DNA from: Felis catus
Taxonomy: Eukaryota
Direction: 5' to 3'
NCBI RefSeq assembly: GCF_018350175.1
Contig: NC_058377.1
Coordinates: 21,142,001-21,206,000 of the forward strand
Length of the DNA stretch: 64,000 bases
The translations under genes were made by a program, and so were the position numbers. Under the pieces are notes generated by a model. It was not told the origin of the DNA, made no database searches, and saw only the letters and a list, made by a program, of their open reading frames with translations. Of this stretch, positions 8,401 to 63,710 are shown piece after piece (within the stretch, counting starts at the first letter, position 1; every line of letters starts with the position of its first letter).

Positions 8401-8625
8401 ACAGCATAGAACAAAAAAGGGATAGTTCTAACTGATATTTATTTACATGCCCCACATTATGGAGACCTCAGCGTCTTTGAGCGCTAACATAGATCAGGAA
8501 CAGACAGCACTGAAGCTACATGGCTGAAAAGACAAATTCTGTTTCATACTACATTGCATGGTGGGACAATAAATATCTACCACAATTTTTCTTCTTCTCT
8601 TTCTACATAAAATTCCCAGAGGAAA

Positions 8626-9585
8626 ATGACAGCAGGAAATCATTCCACAGTGACTGAGTTCATCCTTGCTGGGTTAACAGAGAGCCCAGAACTCCAGCTG
8701 CCCCTTTTCTTCCTCTTCCTAGGAGTCTATGTGGTCACGGTGGTGGGGAACCTGGCCATGATCACACTGATAGGGCTCAGTGCTCACCTGCACACCCCCA
8801 TGTACTATTTCCTCAGCAATTTGTCCTTCATTGATCTCTGCCATTCCACTGTCATTACCCCTAAAATGCTAGTGAACTTTGTAACAGAGAGGAATTTCAT
8901 CTCCTACCAAGCATGCATGACTCAACTCTACTTCTTCCTTGTTTTTGTTATATCAGAATGTCATATGTTGGCTATAATGGCGTATGATCGCTATGTTGCC
9001 ATCTGTAACCCATTGCTTTACAATGTCACCATGTCTTATCAGGTTTGCTCCCGGCTGGTAGTTGGGGTGTATATCATGGGCTTGACTGGTGCCTCAGCTC
9101 ACACAGGCTGCATGCTAAGAGTGCTTTTCTGTAAGGCTGACAGAATCAACCATTACTTCTGTGATCTTTTCCCACTGTTGGAGCTCTCCTGCTCCAGTAC
9201 TTATATCAACGAGGTGGTAGTTTTGTGCTTCAGTGCATTTAATATCCTCGCCCCCAGCCTCATGATTCTTAGCTCCTACATCTTCATCATTGCCAGCATC
9301 CTCCGCATCCGCTCCACCGAAGGTAGGTGCAAAGCCTTCAGCACCTGCAGCTCCCACATCTCAGCTGTTGCCGTTTTCTTTGGATCCGCTGCGTTCATGT
9401 ACCTGCAGCCATCATCTGTGAGCTCCATGAACCAAGGGAAAGTGTCTTCCGTGTTTTACACCATTATTGTGCCTATGCTGAACCCCCTGATCTACAGCCT
9501 GAGGAATAAAGATGTCAGAGTTGTCCTGAATAAGATCCTTGAAAAAAGAAGGAAATGGGTATTTTGCTTGAGAAAAGCTTTGTAA
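8626..9585 (+). CDS. Olfactory receptor, family 8 subfamily G (intact, 319 aa)
   Basis: Single-exon ORF with OR motifs [50 protein letters not shown]; N-glycosylation site NHS; polypyrimidine tract and AG just upstream of the ATG. Confidence 0.97.
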
Positions 9586-15214: not shown

Positions 15215-15266
15215 CACAAGTACACTCATTTTCTGTTTTTTAAGCTTAGAACCAGATGAGAGGATA

Positions 15267-16203
15267 ATGGACCCTGGAAATAATTCCACAGTAACTGAGT
15301 TCATCCTCGCTGGGCTAACAGAGAAGACCGGATTCCAGCTGCCCCTTTTCTTCTTCTTCCTAGGAGTCTATGTGGTCACGGTGGTGGGGAACCTGGCCAT
15401 GATCACACTGATAGGGCTCAGTGCTCACCTGCACACCCCCATGTACTATTTCCTCAGCAATTTGTCCTTCATTGATCTCTGTCATTCCACTGTCATTACC
15501 CCCAAAATGCTGGCGAACTTTGTGACTGAGACGAACATAATTTCCTACTCAGCATGCATGACTCAGCTCTATTTCTTCCTTGTTTTTTGCTATCTCAGAG
15601 TGTCACATGTTAGCTGCAATGGCTTATGACCGCTATGCTGCCATCTGCAACCCCTTGCTTTACAATGTCGTCATGTCTTCACACATCTGCTTCCGGCTCA
15701 CAGTGGGAGTTTATATTTTGGGCATCGTTGGATCTACAATCCATACGGGTTTTATGATGAGGCTCCTTTTCTGCCAGAGCAATGTGATTAACCATTATTT
15801 CTGTGATCTCTTTCCACTCCTGGAGATATCCTGTTCCAGCATCTTCATCAATGAATTATTGGTCCTAGTCTTGAGTGCATTTAACATTCTGACTCCTGCC
15901 TTCACCATCCTTGCCTCCTACATCTTCATCATTGCCAGCATCCTCCGCATCCGCTCCACCGAGGGCAGGTGCAAAGCCTTCAGGACCTGCAGCTCCCACA
16001 TCTCCGCTGTTGCCGTTTTCTTTGGATCTGCTACGTTCATGTACCTGCAGCCATCATCTGTGAGCTCCATGGACCGAGGGAGAGTGTCCTCTGTGTTTTA
16101 TACCACCATTGTGCCCATGCTGAACCCCTTGATCTATAGTCTGCAGAATAAGGATGTCAAATTTGCCCTGAAGAAAATTCTGGGCAGTAGAAAATGTTCA
16201 TGA
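15267..16203 (+). pseudogene. OR8G5: OR8G5/OR8G2-like olfactory receptor with a single +1 frameshift
   Basis: ORFs 15267..15629 and 15580..16203 join into a full 311-aa OR if one T is removed from the T6 run at 15583-15588 (T5 in both paralogues). Sequence ([40 protein letters not shown]) resembles human OR8G5 as recalled. Confidence 0.85.
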
Positions 16204-24583: not shown

Positions 24584-25403
24584 CTGGCAATACCAGATGT
24601 TGGTGAGCAGCAACTGGACTGATACAAAACTGGTGGGATACCAATATGGCTCAGCCACTTTGGGGAAGAAGTTGGCAATTTCTTGTAGATTGAAATAGAC
24701 AATCCAACAATTAAAGTAAGTCCACATTAAAACAGATCTAGGGATGACAAGTGTGGAGCCTGCTTGGGATTCTCTCTCCCTCTATGCCCCTCCCCTGCTC
24801 TCACACACGCTCTCTCAAGCTCTGTCTCTCTCAAAATAAATAAACTTAAAAAAAAAGTTGCGCTCCCAACAATAGATAATAGCAAGTGGTCACGATATAT
24901 ATATTTAGCTAGTGAGCCTGCTTTGGATACTTATATACTTATATTTTATAAGTATATACTTATATATACTTATATACTTATATATACTTATATACTTATA
25001 TAAGTATATACTTACATAAGTATATAAGTATAATTATATTATATATCTAATAAATATAATNNNNNNNNNNNNNNNNNNNNNNNNNNNNNNNNNNNNNNNN
25101 NNNNNNNNNNNNNNNNNNNNNNNNNNNNNNNNNNNNNNNNNNNNNNNNNNNNNNNNNNNNNNNNNNNNNNNNNNNNNNNNNNNNNNNNNNNNNNNNNNNN
25201 NNNNNNNNNNNNNNNNNNNNNNNNNNNNNNNNNNNNNNNNNNNNNNNNNNNNNNNNNNNNNNNNNNNNNNNNNNNNNNNNNNNNNNNNNNNNNNNNNNNN
25301 NNNNNNNNNNNNNNNNNNNNNNNNNNNNNNNNNNNNNNNNNNNNNNNNNNNNNNNNNNNNNNNNNNNNNNNTAACTATATAACTATATAACTATATAACT
25401 ATA

Positions 25404-25434
<31 letters not shown>

Positions 25435-25749
25435 CGTGACCACTTGCTATTATCTATTGTTGGGAGCGCAACTTTTTTTTTTAAGTTTATTTATTTATTT
25501 TGAGAGAGACAGAGCTTGAGAGAGTGTGTGTGAGAGCAGGGGAGGGGCATAGAGGGAGAGAGAATCCCAAGCAGGCTCCACACTTGTCATCCCTAGATCT
25601 GTTTTAATGTGGACTTACTTTATTGTTGGATTGTCTATTTCAATCTACAAGAAATTGCCAACTTCTTCCCCAAAGTGGCTGAGCCATATTAGTATCCCAC
25701 CAGTTTTGTATCAGTCCAGTTGCTGCTCACCAACATCTGGTATTGCCAG
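24584..25749. repeat. Inverted duplication, arms 24584-24904 and 25425-25749
   Basis: The arms are reverse complements with 2 substitutions and 3 small indels; each holds an L1M fragment plus the 3' half of a SINEC. Confidence 0.93.
24905..25434. repeat. AT-rich low-complexity core (TATATACTTA-like and TAACTATA units, (TA)n) with N gap
   Basis: Directly visible; N gap 25061-25371. Confidence 0.9.
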
Positions 25750-26414: not shown

Positions 26415-27823
26415 AATTTTGATGAAGTACAAGTAAACAATTTTTATGGTTAGTTTTTTTGTTGTTTATATCTTTTGTTTTTGTTATTATTCTTGTGTAC
26501 ATATATATACATACATATATATCCTTTTTTAAAAAAATCTAAAACTACTCCAGGATCTAAAAGATTTTCTTCAGTCCCTTCTTTCTGATGTTTTAGTCTT
26601 TGTGCTCAGATCTGATTGCAGGTTTATATTGGAGCAGAAGTGAGATAGAAATTTTTAGATTTTTTTGTATTTTCTATATTTACATAAATTCAACTCTAAT
26701 CCATTTGAAATGTTTACTTTGGTGCACATAATGGTAAAATAATCTTTTTGCCATTTAACTGAATAGGGAGGACGTTTGTAATTCTGTTTTCTAATTTTAT
26801 GCCTCTGCTTTGTATCAAAGATGAAGGAACAGAAAGAAGGGCTGAGATACTAACATTTCTGTTTCTGTAATTTGAAGTAAATTACAGCTTATTTTGCAAA
26901 TGATAAACTGTTAATCATGAAAAACAACACAGTAATTGATTATTCTCACTTTCTGATTGATAAATCTCTCCCAATTTTATGACAAAGTGGATAATATTAT
27001 TATTTCTCTTTTATAGATTTAGAAGGCAAGACACAAAGAGATTGATTGACTTGTTCCAAGGGTATCAGCTACTAACTGAATGACGGTATCAGAATCTGAA
27101 TTTAAGGCCTGCCTTTTAACCACTACTCATACTGCTTTCTTCCAAGCAAAGGGAGAAGTACTTGGCCCAGGACCACAAAGCCACTAATGGTGGGCCAATC
27201 CACTTGGTAGATTTGTACAATGATAGCTGTAGGTGTTGTTTCATCTGAATAATAGTATTTAAACATCTGAAGACTTTATGTAGAGATTCAGATTTCCTGA
27301 TAATTATTTTTAAAATGTAAAGATCTGAAAATCATAAGATCTCATGCATTTCTGCCAGAAATTAATTGCAGGCTATTAACGCTTAGCAGTATTTGGTCTC
27401 CTCAAGGTGTCATGATGCCAGTTCTACTCATCTACACTGGCTTCTCTAAATATTTAGGTTTCTGAGCCTCAACTGAGAAATATTGGCTTGATTATCGTTG
27501 AAATGTTCAAAATGGGAAACACTTGGCAATTTTTAATGATTTATAAACATGGTTATTTTTATATAAATACATTTATTATATTGAAAATATATTATATATA
27601 TAATAATATATATATTATTATATTGAAAATGAGGCTTAATAAATATTAAATCATGATGAATTTCACTTATGTAAGTTGACCTAGAGTTAAATAACCATAT
27701 AGACCAAGAGGATATCTAAAACAAGAATCATCTACATGGGGCATCCTACTCTAAATAGAGATAATGAAGTTTTCCCAACAACCATGTTTTTCTCTGTCCC
27801 CTTCAGAAACCACTCACAGGAAC

Positions 27824-28759
27824 ATGGCAGCAGAAAATCTTTCCACAGTGACTGCGTTTATCCTCACTGGGCTAACACAACAGCCAGAACTCCAGCTGCC
27901 CCTTTTCTTTCTCTTCCTAGGAGTCTATGTGGTCACAGTGGTGGGGAACTTGGTCATGATCACACTGATAGGACTCAGTGCTCACCTACACACCCCCATG
28001 TACTACTTCCTCAGTAATTTGTCCTTCATTGATCTCTGCCATTCCACTGTCATTACCCCCAAAATGCTAGTGAACTTTGTGACAGAGATGGACACCATCT
28101 CCTACTCTGAATGCATAACTCAGCTCTATTTCTTCCTTGTTTTTGCTATCTCAGAGTGTTACATGTTAGCTGCAATGGCATACGACCGCTATGTTGCCAT
28201 CTGTAGCCCCCTGCTTTATAATATCAACATGTCCCATCAGGCTTGTTTCTCCCTGATTTGGGGAGTGTATATTATAGCCCTGGTTTGTGCATTTGTTCAT
28301 ACAGTCTGCTTGTTTAGAGTTCACTTCTGCAAATTTGCTGTGATCAACCATTATTTCTGTGATCTTCTTTCCCTCTTAAAGCTCTCCTGTTCTAGCACCC
28401 ACGTCAATGAATTACTGATTCTAGTCTTTAGTGCAATTAATATCCTCGCCCCCAGCCTCATGATTCTTAGCTCCTACATCTTCATCATTGCCAGCATGCT
28501 CCGCATCCGCTCCACCGAAGGCAGAGCCAAAGCCTTCAGCACCTGCAGCTCCCACATCTCAGCTGTTGCCGTTTTCTTTGGATCCGCTGCGTTCATGTAC
28601 CTGCAGCCATCATCTGTGAGCTCCCTAGACCGAGGAAAAGTGTCTTCTGTGTTTTATACTATTGTTGTGCCTATGTTGAATCCCCTGATCTACAGCCTGA
28701 GGAATAAAGATGTCAATGTCGCACTGAAGAAAATGCTAGAGAGAAGAATATTCTTGTGA
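27824..28759 (+). CDS. OR8G1: OR8G1-like olfactory receptor (intact, 311 aa from MAAENLS)
   Basis: Full OR motif set; [12 protein letters not shown]...FRVHFCKF...[10 protein letters not shown] resembles human OR8G1 as recalled. Strong acceptor tttttctctgtccccttcAG ending at 27806, so the ATG at 27824 is preferred over 27764. Confidence 0.95.
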
Positions 28760-50645: not shown

Positions 50646-51190
50646 AAAAGAAAGGAAAGTCAAAACCAGCAACTCACAGAAGAGATGGAAAGCTTGGAGG
50701 GAACCAAAGCTCTGTGAGATCGGGGTCAGACACTGAATGAGCAAAATGAAGATGCCAAAGCCAAAGGGGAATCCCAGGGATACCAACAAGGGAGAGGTTA
50801 AGCTCTGAGACATGAGAAGAGGACACAGGCTGCTGCAGATTAAAAAGTAGCAAAACCTGGCAATAGCACTGTACGGTTTCTCTAAAGGTTACTGAATAAC
50901 ACAAGGATTATTTTTCATTTGTAGGAGAATCTAAGATTCAATTTGTGGAGACAAAAGGATTTTTACTTCACTATGTCACGTGGCAGCAATAAAAACTGAA
51001 GCCAAATGCACCACCGACGTCTTGATAAGGGCTTCAACTAAGATTTTAGCCTTGTTTTTCAGAAATTCTGTGCCAGTTAGAAATTATGTAATTCATCAGA
51101 TCTGGGATCACTAAATTCTGTCAGATGACAGTGTTTGTCTAATAAAAGCCTCTTTCCTGAGCTACTCAGCCTAGCACAACTGGGAGAAGA

Positions 51191-52114
51191 ATGGATACAG
51201 GAAACCATTCTTCAGTAACTGAGTTTATCCTTGAGGGGTTAACAGACCAGCCAGGACTCCAGCTCCCTCTCTTTTTCCTGTTTCTATTGATCTATATGGT
51301 CTGCATGGTGGGAAATTCGGGTTTGATCTTTTTAATTAGGATCAGTTCTCAGCTTCACACGCCCATGTATTATTTTCTCAGTAATTTGTCCTTCATAGAT
51401 CTCTGCTACTCCACTGTCATAATTCCCAAGATGTTGGTGAACTTTGTGTCAGAGAAGAATTTCACCTCCTTTCCTGAGTGTATGACCCAGCTCTTTTGCT
51501 TCTGCTTCTTTGGTATTGATGACTCCTACATGCTGACAGCAATGGCATATGATCGTTATGTTGCCATCTGTAACCCCTTGCTCTACAATGTCATAATGTC
51601 CCCAAGAATCTGTTTTCTACTGGCCACCAGTGTGTATACAGTGGGGATCATTGGAGCCTTGGTCCACACCAGCTACATATCTAGTCGATCCTTCTGTGGA
51701 ATGAACATCATCCACCATTACTTCTGTGACATCCTCCCTCTTCTGAATATATCTTGCTCAAGAGACTACACCAAGGAACTCTTGGTGATGATTTTGGTTG
51801 GCGTCAATGTATTTGCATGTGCTGTAGCCATCTTCATCTCTTATGCCTTCATTCTTTCCAGTATCTTATGCATCTGCTCAGCTGAAGGCAGGTCCAAAGC
51901 TTTCAGTACCTGCAGCTCACACCTTGCAGCTGTTGGGGTTTTCTATGGCTCCATCATTTTCATGTATTTTAAACCATATACCAGTGACATAATACAGGAG
52001 AAGGTGGCCTCTGTGTTCTATACCACAGTGATTCCCATGCTTAATCCCCTTATCTACAGCCTTAGGAACAAGGATGTCAAAGAATCCCTTAAAAGAGTTC
52101 TTAATGGTGGGTAA
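51191..52114 (+). CDS. Olfactory receptor, family 8 (OR8D/OR8F-like; intact, 307 aa)
   Basis: OR motifs [50 protein letters not shown]; NHS glycosylation site; TM3 reads [10 protein letters not shown]. Confidence 0.96.
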
Positions 52115-60136: not shown

Positions 60137-60292
60137 AATTAAGCATATGACTGTCATACTACCCAGCGATTCCACTAGAAGGTATTTATTCAAAATAAAT
60201 GAAATATATGCCCTGATAAAGACATGACACAAAAAAATTCACACAAGCTTTATCTGTAATAGTCCCAAACTAGAAACAACCCAAATACCCAT

Positions 60293-60729
60293 TGTGGGTA
60301 AGTAGATTCTACTTACATAAATGGGTTAGAAAAAAGCTTAGGGCAGAAAGCTACCACCACAGGGCAAAAGCGCCCCATGCTAGGTAGCGAGATATTGGTA
60401 GTGAGGTAATGGGATCATGAGTAAAATCACTTTCCATCTGATACCAATGTGCTTTGAGTACAAACTCCACTTGCTCCCTAGACCCTTTGCTTCTTTGCAT
60501 ACACAAGTTAATGATTACTGTCTGATTGTTTTCTCCACGTTCATGTGTGTAAGATCTTGTTTTCTTCACATTCACCACGTGGGTAATATCTTGTGAGCTC
60601 AATAAATACGGACACAAAACCCTTGTTTGGGACTCTTGTCTCCTCCCTGACATTAGCCTCTCTCATAGTAAATTCTGCATCTGTTCTCTTGCTGGACAAG
60701 AGAGAAGTCCAGACTCATAGTCTGTGCCA
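60293..60729 (+). mobile_element. 5' LTR of a class II (betaretrovirus-like) ERV
   Basis: Begins TG where the L1M sequence stops and ends CA 2 nt before a PBS; AATAAATA (60601-60608) and AGTAAA (60667-60672) resemble the HERV-K TATA-like box and the MMTV poly(A) signal; 437 bp. Confidence 0.8.
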
Positions 60730-60731
60730 GA

Positions 60732-60749
60732 TGGTGACCCTAATGTGAT
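60732..60749 (+). promoter_or_regulatory. Primer-binding site complementary to tRNA-Trp
   Basis: TGGTGACCCTAATGTGAT versus the tRNA-Trp(CCA) complement TGGTGACCCCGACGTGAT: 15/18 identical, all 3 mismatches at CpG positions. Confidence 0.85.
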
Positions 60750-61215
60750 AGAAGGCAACGTGAAGCAGATATGATAGAAGGTGAGGTGGCTAGAAGAAAT
60801 GCCAACGTGACTAAGAAGTTGATGTGACAGAAGAGGTTGTGATTAGAAGCGGATGTGGCTGAGAAGGTGACGTGGCTAGAGGCCAATATGACTAGGAGCC
60901 AACGTGGCTAAAGAAGCCTACATGACTAGAAGTGGATGTGGCAGGGGCCCTTGGGTGGCGCAGTCGGTTGAGCGTCCGACTTCAGCCAGGTCGCGATCTC
61001 GCGGTCCGTGAGTTCGAGCCTGGCGTCAGGCTCTGGGCTGATGGCTCAGAGCCTGGAGCCTGGAGCCTGTTTCCGGTTCTGTGTCTCCCTCTCTCTCTGC
61101 CCCTCCCCCGTTCATGCTCTGTCTCTCTCTGTCCCCAAAATAAATAAACGTTGAAAAAAAAAAAAAAAAGAAAAAGAAGTGGATGTGGCTAAGAAGCCCA
61201 TGTAACTCAAGGACT
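60741..61215 (+). repeat. Degenerate ~16-bp minisatellite in the ERV leader (consensus ~CCGACGTGRCTAGAAG)
   Basis: About 14 units mostly ending in GAAG; split by a SINE insertion. Confidence 0.85.
60944..61174 (+). mobile_element. Cat-type Can-SINE inside the ERV leader
   Basis: TSD agaagtggatgtggc at 60928-60942 and 61175-61189; internal duplication gcctggagcctggagcc. Confidence 0.97.
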
Positions 61216-61348: not shown

Positions 61349-61964
61349 ATAGGAGACTCCCTATCTCTAGAACAAGAACAATACATTCATATAGCACTCC
61401 TTAAATTATTAATAATTAGGGGCGCCTGGGTGGTGCAGTCGGTTAAGCATCCGACTTCAGCCAGGTCACGATCTCGCGGTCCGGGAGTTCGAGCCCTGCG
61501 TCGGGCTCTGGGCTGATGGCTCAGAGCCTGGAGCCTGTTTCCGATTCTGTGTCTCCCTGTCTCTCTGCCCCTCCCCCGTTCATGCTCTGTCTCTCTCTGT
61601 CCCCAAAAATAAATAAACGTTGAAAAAAAATGTATTAATAATTATCCAGCAACATTACCCTTGGTTTCTCGAGCAAGGAACCTTCAACCTAGACATTTGG
61701 GAACAAATAGGTAAAACAATAAAGGCACGCCATACAGAAAGCACCAATGTGCTGCTTGAAGTTATTCTTACATGGTCTCTTGTCCATTTGGCTATTCTCC
61801 CCCTGAGTGCAGATGATGTTTATGAAGACATAGGCCCACTCAAAGTAAATAAAAAATTTTCCAAGGAACTTAAACCTCCTTATTGTCAGCCAGCCCCTTC
61901 GGCACCCCTACACCCAGAGAACGCTGACTCCCCCTGTGTCATTGGGGAAAATCTAACCTTTTAA
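61349..61964 (+). pseudogene. gag: ERV gag matrix (MA) remnant, betaretrovirus-like, split by a SINE
   Basis: Removing the SINE and one TSD gives an in-frame (M>I)GDSLSLEQEQYIHIALLKLLIIIQQHYPWFLEQGTFNLDIWEQIGKTIK, matching the class II MA motif PWF.E.G..L..W..VG; the start codon is ATA instead of ATG. Confidence 0.85.
61419..61632 (+). mobile_element. Young cat-type Can-SINE inside ERV gag
   Basis: TSD tattaataatta at 61407-61418 and 61633-61644. Confidence 0.97.
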
Positions 61965-62011
61965 AGGAACAAAAGATTCCCTTTGATGATGTCCTTACCA
62001 GGATGCTACAG

Positions 62012-62190
62012 CCTATTAAGAATGCCCTTACAGTGTTTACAGATGCCTTGGGGAAAACTCACAGGGCTTCTTGCCTTTGGAAAACTGGAAAAAACTGAGA
62101 ACATGTATTATACACTGGACTGGGTTCTACCCAACATTCAGAACTGTGAGCCATATTATTAGCTATAGAAATCTTTTCCCTACCCTTATT
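62012..62190 (+). pseudogene. pol: ERV pol RNase H remnant (class II)
   Basis: Frame from 62012 reads PIKNALTVFTDALGKTHRASCLWKTGKN*EHVLYTGLGSTQHSEL*AILLAIEIFSLPL (TVFTD and GSxQxxEL motifs). Confidence 0.8.
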
Positions 62191-63260
62191 GGCTCTGAGA
62201 TGTCAAGGAGCAAAGACCACCCACTTCAGATTTTCCCATCAGTATTCCAGGTAAAAGTTAACCACGGGGAACAAATTGTCAGGTGGACCCAAACGTAAGT
62301 TTGTTGGTTTGAAATAGACCTGTTTCTCAAAGGTCAAATAAGTTCATGTTATCTCTATTCCGATTCATTAGCAAAAGGATGACTTAAAGTAATGGTTAAC
62401 TTTGTCTCATAGTTTTCATGGGTAATTGTTAAGATAGCTTTAGTAACCTAAACAGTTTTGCTTGCATGACAAATTGGGATTGAATTCATTGGACATCTAG
62501 GCCTTTTCTAAATGGGATGGGATGCTAAAGCATTGATTAATAAACAAGGCTTATCTGCTTTTGGCTCTTTATTGCAGAGAAACTAAGGATATTTGGGTCT
62601 GGTGGTAAAGTAGCTTGGTGTTTTATATCTTTCTGAATTTTTTTTAAAACAAATTTTCCAAGATTTAAATTGTAAATGAAGTCTTTTTGACCAATTAAGC
62701 TTCTTTGGTATGTTAAGTTACTTCAGAAGTATTGTCAAACAAATAGTAAGTCTTAGGTTACATTGAGTAAATGCTCTAACTGTTCTAGAGATTATATGCA
62801 ATTCCTAGTTTTAATATTTTTTTGGTATAAGGTCATCACTTGATATTCTGAAGTGTTATGTGCCACAGAAATGACTGAATTTCCTTGTCAATTGCATTAG
62901 ATCTTTTAATTATGTCCATTTTTTACTCTTTTTGCCATAGTTCTGTGAGTCTTGTTGGAAGACTTCTTCACTGCTATACCTCTCAGTAGACAGGTGATTC
63001 TTTCTACTCAGGGATGCTCTGTTTCCCCTGAACTCTGTCTTTCCCTTTTGTAACTCCTCTATACCAACCCCAACTGAGCAATGTTGGCCCATAGGTAGGG
63101 ATCTCTCTATGCTCCTATTCAGCAGGAAGAAGTTACAGAAGAGAACACCATCCACCCTCAGCAACCTTAAATATTTTAAGGGTCAAAACTGTTCAGAGGG
63201 GGGATGATATGGGAAACAAAGGCAGAAGGAAATGGCAGATAAAATTAAATTTCCTTATAA
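62190..63260 (+). mobile_element. Class I (gamma-like) ERV 3' segment: AT-rich internal region, env end, PPT and U3 stub
   Basis: YAPIQQEEVTEE-type env tail at ~63110-63145, PPT AGAGGGGGGA (63195-63204), then an LTR start TGATATGGGAAACAAAGGCAG at 63205 that stops after ~55 bp; left boundary approximate. Confidence 0.65.
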
Positions 63261-63535
63261 TCCACAAGGCCATGCAATTGTAGAATGAGCACATAATAAA
63301 CTTAAAAATGTGTTAAAAAAACAAAAAAGGGGGAATTACCCATGGCTGTCTTCATTACAACCACAACTTCTCGATTGTGCTGTGATCATTCTTAACTTTT
63401 TAAATCTTTGACCCTCAAGTACTAACCACAGCCGAGCTACATTCTTTAAAATCAGATAAAACCTCAATATGCTTGTGTTCTTTCAGATTCCTGACTTCTG
63501 TGGATTCCCTCAGTTGGTGAAGCCGTATCATGACA
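63253..63535 (+). pseudogene. pol: ERV pol integrase remnant (class II)
   Basis: PYNPQGHAIVE*AHNKLKNVLKKQKRG...ILNFLN; later YACVLSDS*LLWIPS and, after a frameshift, LVKPYHD. Confidence 0.85.
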
Positions 63536-63559
63536 TGGTGGAGACCCCAGATACCTTTC

Positions 63560-63710
63560 AATCAACCAGGACTCTGAATGAGCAGCCACCACTCCCATTT
63601 TTCAAGATGGAAGAAACATCTCCATTGACTTCTCATCCTGAAGCCACTCCACAAATGCAAGTCCTTTCCCCTGATATAACACGGGGAAGCCTTAAACAAT
63701 TCTGACATTT
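63560..63710 (+). pseudogene. env: ERV env signal-peptide region remnant (class II)
   Basis: PDITRGSLKQF (63670-63702) resembles the class II env leader motif P..TWG.LK.L, with W>R. Confidence 0.5.

What the first reader, a model, noticed from the sequence alone, without database searches (positions are those of the whole stretch)
60293..60749. Betaretrovirus-like felid ERV primed by tRNA-Trp
Seen in sequence: a TG...CA LTR, a 2-nt spacer, then TGGTGACCCTAATGTGAT. This is the exact complement of the tRNA-Trp(CCA) 3' end except for three changes, all explained by CpG deamination. The downstream gag MA, RNase H and integrase remnants are class II. Established: mammalian betaretroviruses (MMTV, MPMV, JSRV, most HERV-K) use tRNA-Lys and IAP uses Phe, whereas this Trp PBS, with a CA-NN-TGG junction, is characteristic of avian alpharetroviruses (RSV/ASLV). 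Inference: this may be a little-described carnivore class II lineage with an atypical primer.
Basis: partly seen in the sequence, partly recalled or inferred. Interest (0 to 1): 0.75.

Follow-up and report, generated by a model that had tools for sequence, protein, structure and literature searches.

The report
Tryptophan-primed cat retrovirus relic family
This is one broken copy of an old retrovirus family in a cat-type genome that carries a tryptophan-tRNA primer site instead of the usual lysine one; it groups with beta-like rather than bird alpha retroviruses, and a primate counterpart with the same primer is already published, so the family may be undescribed but the trick is not new.

Summary
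Observation confirmed. A 437-bp TG...CA LTR is followed by GA and an 18-mer 3 mismatches from this genome's tRNA-Trp(CCA); the next-best tRNA has 6. All 16 related copies that kept a primer site, chosen by gag/RNase H likeness, match Trp best. The window copy belongs to a short subfamily lacking RT, carries DNA shared with a class I-like ERV, and has lost its 3' LTR. LTR pairs suggest roughly 20-40 My, older than living cats. Fuller copies have dUTPase-protease and a Pol that groups with a second Trp-primed cat family inside the beta-like radiation, not with alpharetroviruses (AU test inconclusive, p=0.108). The CA-NN-TGG junction also occurs in Lys-primed betaretroviruses, and this genome has a Ser-primed class II family too. 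A Trp-primed mammalian class II ERV is published (ERV-Hako, PMC11905727); I found no carnivore one in 10 searches, but Dfam/Repbase were not checkable. Extras: a U5 hairpin shared by both Trp families with a loop complementary to the Trp anticodon loop, and a leader array built from the primer site's 3' half. The scan earlier noted a probable sister copy elsewhere in this genome (e1-8621010).

The parts
60287..60292 (+). 5' flank hexamer, the expected target duplication; its partner is lost with the 3' LTR
   Evidence: family duplication is 6 bp
60293..60729 (+). 5' LTR, 437 bp, TG...CA; poly(A) signal AATAAA at 60601
60685..60703 (+). U5 hairpin: 7-bp stem, loop CTGGA (60692-60696), complementary to the tRNA-Trp anticodon loop; same loop with a differently spelled stem in the second Trp family
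   Evidence: role inferred
60730..60731 (+). 2-nt spacer GA (15 of 16 copies GA or TA-type, rows)
60732..60749 (+). primer-binding site for tRNA-Trp(CCA), 15 of 18 matches
60750..60943 (+). leader array of degenerate 15-21-nt units that repeat the 3' half of the primer site; ends about 61208 beyond the SINE
60944..61174 (+). later SINE insertion in the leader, with target duplication
61349..61830 (+). broken gag matrix remnant, split by a second SINE (about 61419-61632)
   Evidence: Pfam Gag_p10 E 7.7e-9; 69-71% DNA identity to fuller copies
62000..62190 (+). RNase H fragment; capsid, protease, dUTPase and RT are missing in front of it
62215..63260 (+). DNA shared with another, class I-like ERV family, including its polypurine tract and the first ~55 bp of its LTR (63205-63260)
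   Evidence: class I assignment inferred and weak
63250..63698 (+). integrase 3' fragment and the stretch behind it; the copy is cut off at 63698
   Evidence: junction covered by reads and a contig of other runs

Best explanation
This is a broken, 3'-truncated copy of an old class II (beta-like) endogenous retrovirus family whose primer site matches tRNA-Trp, and it likely spread as a short helper-dependent element some 20-40 million years ago. Shown: the Trp site is family-wide; the short subfamily lacks RT; fuller relatives have gag, dUTPase-protease and pol; their Pol groups with a second Trp-primed family of this genome. Inferred: RNA from the 5' LTR was packaged and copied by enzymes of the fuller relatives, tRNA-Trp primed minus-strand synthesis at the site, and Trp use was inherited from the common ancestor of the two families, independently of the bird alpharetroviruses. 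Also inferred, less firmly: a U5 hairpin loop contacts the primer's anticodon loop, and slips at plus-strand transfer duplicated part of the site into the leader array.
For: 16 of 16 copies with a site after the LTR match Trp best (0-4 mismatches; 20 of 34 mismatches at the two CpGs), out of 24 elements fetched by gag/RNase H likeness. 18/18 matches in L161, L172, L177, L188. 10 of 16 short-subfamily loci have two LTRs 3.5-4.3 kb apart; 6-bp duplications in 5 of them. L178 and L181 carry dUTPase-protease and RT; best solved-structure match is a 618-aa polymerase, 7sr6, E 3e-54 against 4e-28 for HIV-2 RT (that 7sr6 is HERV-K RT is recalled). Pol trees: family A 100/100; A + B + two long-branch loci 96/95 and 97/95; alpharetroviruses apart at 100/100. 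Non-CpG LTR-LTR distance 0.076-0.172, median 0.116, 8 pairs.
Against: AU test did not reject family A + alpha as one clade (p=0.108). The trees were rooted on the alpha group and hold no HERV-K/HML or ERV-Hako row. The A+B clade also holds L270, whose best site is Lys (3 mismatches), and L252 with no site found, so one gain of Trp is not proven. Two of the four Pol-bearing A loci (L180, L184) have no LTR or site in the fetched span. 8 of 24 elements had no site. Ages rest on recalled rates (1.5-2.2e-9 per site per year give medians of 26-39 My).
Confidence: 0.8

Rival explanations
1. The family descends from an alpharetrovirus-like (bird) virus and kept its Trp primer.
For: Same 18-mer as 9 of 9 viral-contig matches; top RT homologues are mostly bird ERVs at about 50%; AU p=0.108; a felid class II clade 'intermediate between alpha and beta' is reported (PMC4373062, passages).
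Against: Best trees separate alpha at 100/100; the family has a dUTPase-protease gene and a Gag_p10 matrix, which are beta traits (recalled); beta-like Trp-site elements from metagenome contigs (L338, L381) fall in a different, bird-ERV clade; the same site heads many unrelated LTR elements (70 metagenome stretches), so Trp use recurs.
Confidence: 0.07
2. The Trp site and LTR-leader came in by recombination from another element (a primer swap), so Pol ancestry says nothing about the primer.
For: The family is chimeric: 1 kb is shared with another ERV family; a Lys-site locus sits in the same clade; primer switches within a family are known (PMC7472051, passage).
Against: U5 ends of families A and B align and share the hairpin, in step with their Pol grouping; the donor of the shared DNA has Lys/Phe-like sites, not Trp.
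Confidence: 0.1
3. The window 18-mer is a decayed Lys or other site, or chance.
For: 3 mismatches; incomplete tRNA set.
Against: Next-best tRNA 6 mismatches, chance about 1e-5, perfect matches in sister copies.
Confidence: 0.01

Closest known systems
ERV-Hako / HakoP of simians (Frith 2025, PMC11905727; section and part of supplement read)
   Same: Group II ERV, tRNA-Trp primer, 5-6-bp target duplication, about 400-bp LTR, defective forms that carry foreign DNA.
   Different: Primate hosts; captures host 3' UTRs, not another ERV; about 47 LTR copies against hundreds here. Kinship not tested: no Hako sequence was available.
Felid class II clades of Mata et al. 2015 (PMC4373062; passages and supplement search)
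   Same: Three class II clades in felids, one placed basal to or between alpha and beta without support.
   Different: Pro-pol only; the words PBS, primer binding and tRNA do not occur in the text. Whether family A or B is their third clade could not be tested.
Avian sarcoma/leukosis viruses and EAV (alpharetroviruses)
   Same: Identical 18-nt Trp site.
   Different: Separate Pol clade, spacer TT or AG, no CTGGA in the last 60 nt of U5 in 6 of 6 loci, no dUTPase (recalled).
HERV-K(HML)-type and exogenous betaretroviruses; ETn-like non-autonomous partners
   Same: Gag_p10 matrix, dUTPase-protease, 6-bp duplication, TGTGGGG LTR start (recalled as HERV-K-like), helper-dependent short forms.
   Different: Trp instead of Lys primer; Pol only about 41-50% identical to any relative found.

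Membership tests
Class II ERV (beta-like) | Pol groups with class II retroviruses | tested here: met
Class II ERV (beta-like) | dUTPase in front of protease | tested here: met
   L178 and L181; deleted in the window copy
Class II ERV (beta-like) | Betaretroviral matrix domain | tested here: met
   Gag_p10 E 7.7e-9
Class II ERV (beta-like) | 6-bp target duplication | tested here: met
   23 of 27 solo-like LTRs; not testable in the window copy
Betaretrovirus in the narrow sense (MMTV/MPMV/JSRV clade) | Pol inside that clade | tested here: not met
   separate branch
Betaretrovirus in the narrow sense (MMTV/MPMV/JSRV clade) | tRNA-Lys primer site | tested here: not met
Alpharetrovirus | tRNA-Trp primer site | tested here: met
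Alpharetrovirus | Pol groups with ASLV/EAV | tested here: inconclusive
   best trees say no at 100/100; AU p=0.108 does not reject it
Alpharetrovirus | No dUTPase (recalled trait) | tested here: not met
   dUTPase present
ERV-Hako group | Group II, Trp primer, 5-6-bp duplication | tested here: met
ERV-Hako group | Sequence or tree kinship with Hako | not testable with these tools
Existing Dfam/Repbase carnivore ERV2 entry | LTR matches a library entry | not testable with these tools
   no repeat library on hand; an LTR with 945 candidates is likely catalogued

The most novel reading that the evidence does not exclude
Families A and B mark a deep, undescribed Trp-primed class II lineage of mammals (possibly including ERV-Hako) that gained Trp priming independently of bird alpharetroviruses and fixed it with a U5 hairpin whose CUGGA loop pairs with the tRNA-Trp anticodon loop: a natural, covarying counterpart of the HIV-1 A-loop/anticodon contact.
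Probability: 0.25. Interest if true: 0.65.

Novelty: new member of a known kind. Interest (0 to 1): 0.42.

Why it matters
Primer choice is used to name ERVs and is the handle for host silencing: KRAB zinc-finger repressors are known for Lys and Pro sites, none for Trp (PMC10602909, passages). A second mammalian Trp-primed class II lineage, next to Lys- and Ser-primed ones in one genome, shows that class II primer use is labile and gives natural sequences for asking how a primer switch is stabilised. The U5 hairpin gives a concrete, testable contact. The elements are long dead, so the value is evolutionary and mechanistic.

Tried and rejected
Pfam found no RNase H or integrase in the window frames; these rest on tblastn. 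No 3' LTR or second ACCCAT-flanked end in L031/L032. Tandem Repeats Finder saw only 2.4 units of the leader array in the window. 'Primer-half repeats are special to Trp' is not shown: 5 of 51 metagenome Trp elements have one or more, but so do 6 of 15 cat Lys3 copies and 2 of 3 viral Lys loci (one copy each), while 0 of 6 family B internal copies and 2 of 11 A2 copies do. The CTGGA motif is not general to Trp priming: 0 of 6 alpha loci and 2 of 52 metagenome loci. Whole-U5 folding is no better than shuffles (z -0.2 to -0.6). The idea that the loop was a CpG palindrome is disfavoured: CTGGA 47, CTAGA 9, CCGGA 4, CCAGA 1 of 83 (the search pattern demanded the arms, so stem counts there are biased). 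The sequencing-run search returned only two coded organisms and gave no host range. Family A and B LTRs show no significant blastn match overall; only the U5 ends align. Literature: 10 searches found no Trp-primed carnivore ERV; Song et al. 2013 was not held; the dog paper says beta-like elements had mostly Lys sites, its Table S1 was not read (PMC3093408); one figure file of PMC4373062 had no text. Rows dropped from trees: L176 (too short); the careful trees used 48 and 38 of 91-94 rows.

Full report
Observation. The window reads as stated: LTR 60293-60729 (TG...CA), spacer GA, 18-mer at 60732-60749. The LTR is a common repeat of this genome (945 candidates, 40 scored, 79-85% identity). Most hits are solo LTRs; 23 of 27 examined have a 6-bp target duplication with at most one mismatch. 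I took tRNA genes from the same genome and compared 3' ends per copy. The window site is 3 mismatches from tRNA-Trp(CCA) and 6 from the next tRNA among 33 distinct ends; chance about 1e-5. The set lacks several tRNAs. Two of the three changes fall in one CpG, so 'all CpG deamination' is slightly overstated. Contigs of other runs confirm the junction.

Family-wide test. To avoid selecting on the site, I fetched elements by gag/RNase H likeness: 27 matches, 25 distinct elements besides the window, 24 fetched. Sixteen kept a site behind the LTR and all 16 match Trp best, with 0-4 mismatches, 20 of 34 mismatches at the two CpGs. Eight had none in the fetched span; in L157 and L162 it is deleted. 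A direct pattern search gave 28 matches against 2 for the control: 13 behind this LTR family (A, the window and three near-identical duplicates included), 14 behind a second LTR family (B), one unrelated.

Anatomy. The window copy runs LTR, site, leader array, gag matrix remnant (Gag_p10 E 7.7e-9), RNase H fragment (62000-62190), about 1 kb shared with another ERV family (62215-63260), integrase 3' fragment, and stops at 63698. Two SINEs inserted later. Reads and a contig from other runs cover the cut, and no LTR lies in the next 15 kb. Sixteen sister loci share this short plan; 10 keep both LTRs 3.5-4.3 kb apart. RT is absent, so these could only move with help (inference). The shared kilobase includes the donor's polypurine tract and LTR start; the donor looks class I-like, on a sub-threshold MLVIN_C hit (E 0.088) and recalled gag motifs, so that label is weak. 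Non-CpG LTR-LTR distances of 8 pairs are 0.076-0.172, a median of 26-39 My at recalled rates, before living cats diversified (about 11 My, recalled).

Lineage. Fuller copies (L178, L180, L181, L184) carry gag, dUTPase-protease and pol remnants; L181 has both LTRs, a Trp site and a 6-bp duplication. RT relatives are at most about 51% identical, many from birds. In Pol trees of 48 and 38 rows, family A is one clade (100/100), joins family B and two long-branch loci (96/95, 97/95), and sits among beta-like rows; alpharetroviruses are apart at 100/100. The AU test of A + alpha gave p=0.108, so it is not formally rejected; the trees lack HML and Hako rows and a true outgroup. Other class II families of this genome use Lys (15 loci) or Ser(AGA) (4 loci), and family B uses Trp (L258, L266, L274). 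Lys-primed viral loci also show CA-NN-TGG, so the junction carries no alpha signal. The same Trp site heads 70 metagenome stretches, including distant LTR elements and beta-like elements that group with bird ERVs: Trp priming has arisen many times.

Two extras. First, U5 holds a hairpin at 60685-60703 with loop CTGGA, complementary to positions 33-37 of the tRNA-Trp anticodon loop. Family B has the same loop and three closing pairs, with four outer pairs changed on both sides. This counts as about one event between two families, was found after the fact, the loop varies (CTGGA in 47 of 83 A copies, 10 of 14 B copies), overall folds are not exceptional, and alpha loci lack it. An anticodon contact like HIV-1's A-loop (recalled) is a fair hypothesis, not a result. 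Second, the leader of the short subfamily is an array containing the 3' half of the site, 70-275 nt long across copies; 10 of 13 copies hold extra half-sites against at most 0.1 expected. Slippage at plus-strand transfer is my inference. In family B several solo LTRs carry one or two whole Trp sites inside, with the target duplication beyond them.

Known work. ERV-Hako is a group II, Trp-primed ERV of simians with 5-6-bp duplications (PMC11905727: passages, section 6 and supplement part 2), so the primer is not new for mammalian class II. Mata et al. report three felid class II clades, one between alpha and beta, without primer data (PMC4373062, passages). A review lists four cat beta families (PMC4133949, passages). 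Dog beta-like ERVs are said to have mostly Lys sites (PMC3093408, passages). Bird avibeta2 often uses Phe (PMC3482500, passage). Pangolin and red panda papers mention no Trp (PMC12584738, PMC12323578, passages). Ten searches found no Trp-primed carnivore ERV; Dfam, Repbase and Song 2013 could not be seen.

Verdict. Real feature, correctly spotted; a new member of a known but rare kind, with no demonstrated alpharetroviral link. Interest 0.42.

Noticed in passing
L037, L042, L046, L052, L054 (around 1500 in each): Solo LTRs of family B carry one or two tRNA-Trp primer sites inside the LTR, followed by a repeat of the LTR end and then the 6-bp target duplication.
   Followed up: partly
L162:1190-1353: Perfect 17-bp minisatellite, 9.6 copies with intact CpG, grown from the ERV leader unit in a copy that lost its primer site; looks like a recent expansion.
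   Followed up: partly
L254, L264, L265, L272: A class II ERV family with a tRNA-Ser(AGA) primer site (1-3 mismatches), one Pol clade with further loci.
   Followed up: partly
window 62215-63260; L385, L391, L394: The short subfamily carries about 1 kb of another ERV family, with its polypurine tract and first 55 bp of LTR; L394 shows a 5-bp duplication.
   Followed up: partly
L334, L338, L358, L381: Beta-like elements with a Trp site in metagenome contigs, dUTPase-like region in L334 and L338, grouping with bird ERVs.
   Followed up: partly
L369, L349, L315, L350: Unrelated Trp-primed LTR elements that also repeat the 3' half of the primer site in tandem.
   Followed up: partly
G000:C47:83053778, 83226094, 83282569: Three identical copies of an RT-bearing family A provirus, likely a recent segmental duplication.
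   Followed up: no
window 8603-9362, 15244-16004, 27801-28560, 51168-51927: Four dispersed copies of a repeat of several hundred bases (62-88% identity), not identified.
   Followed up: no
window 24584-25749: Near-perfect inverted repeat arms (98-99%, about 130 nt each, two pairs) around N-containing sequence.
   Followed up: no
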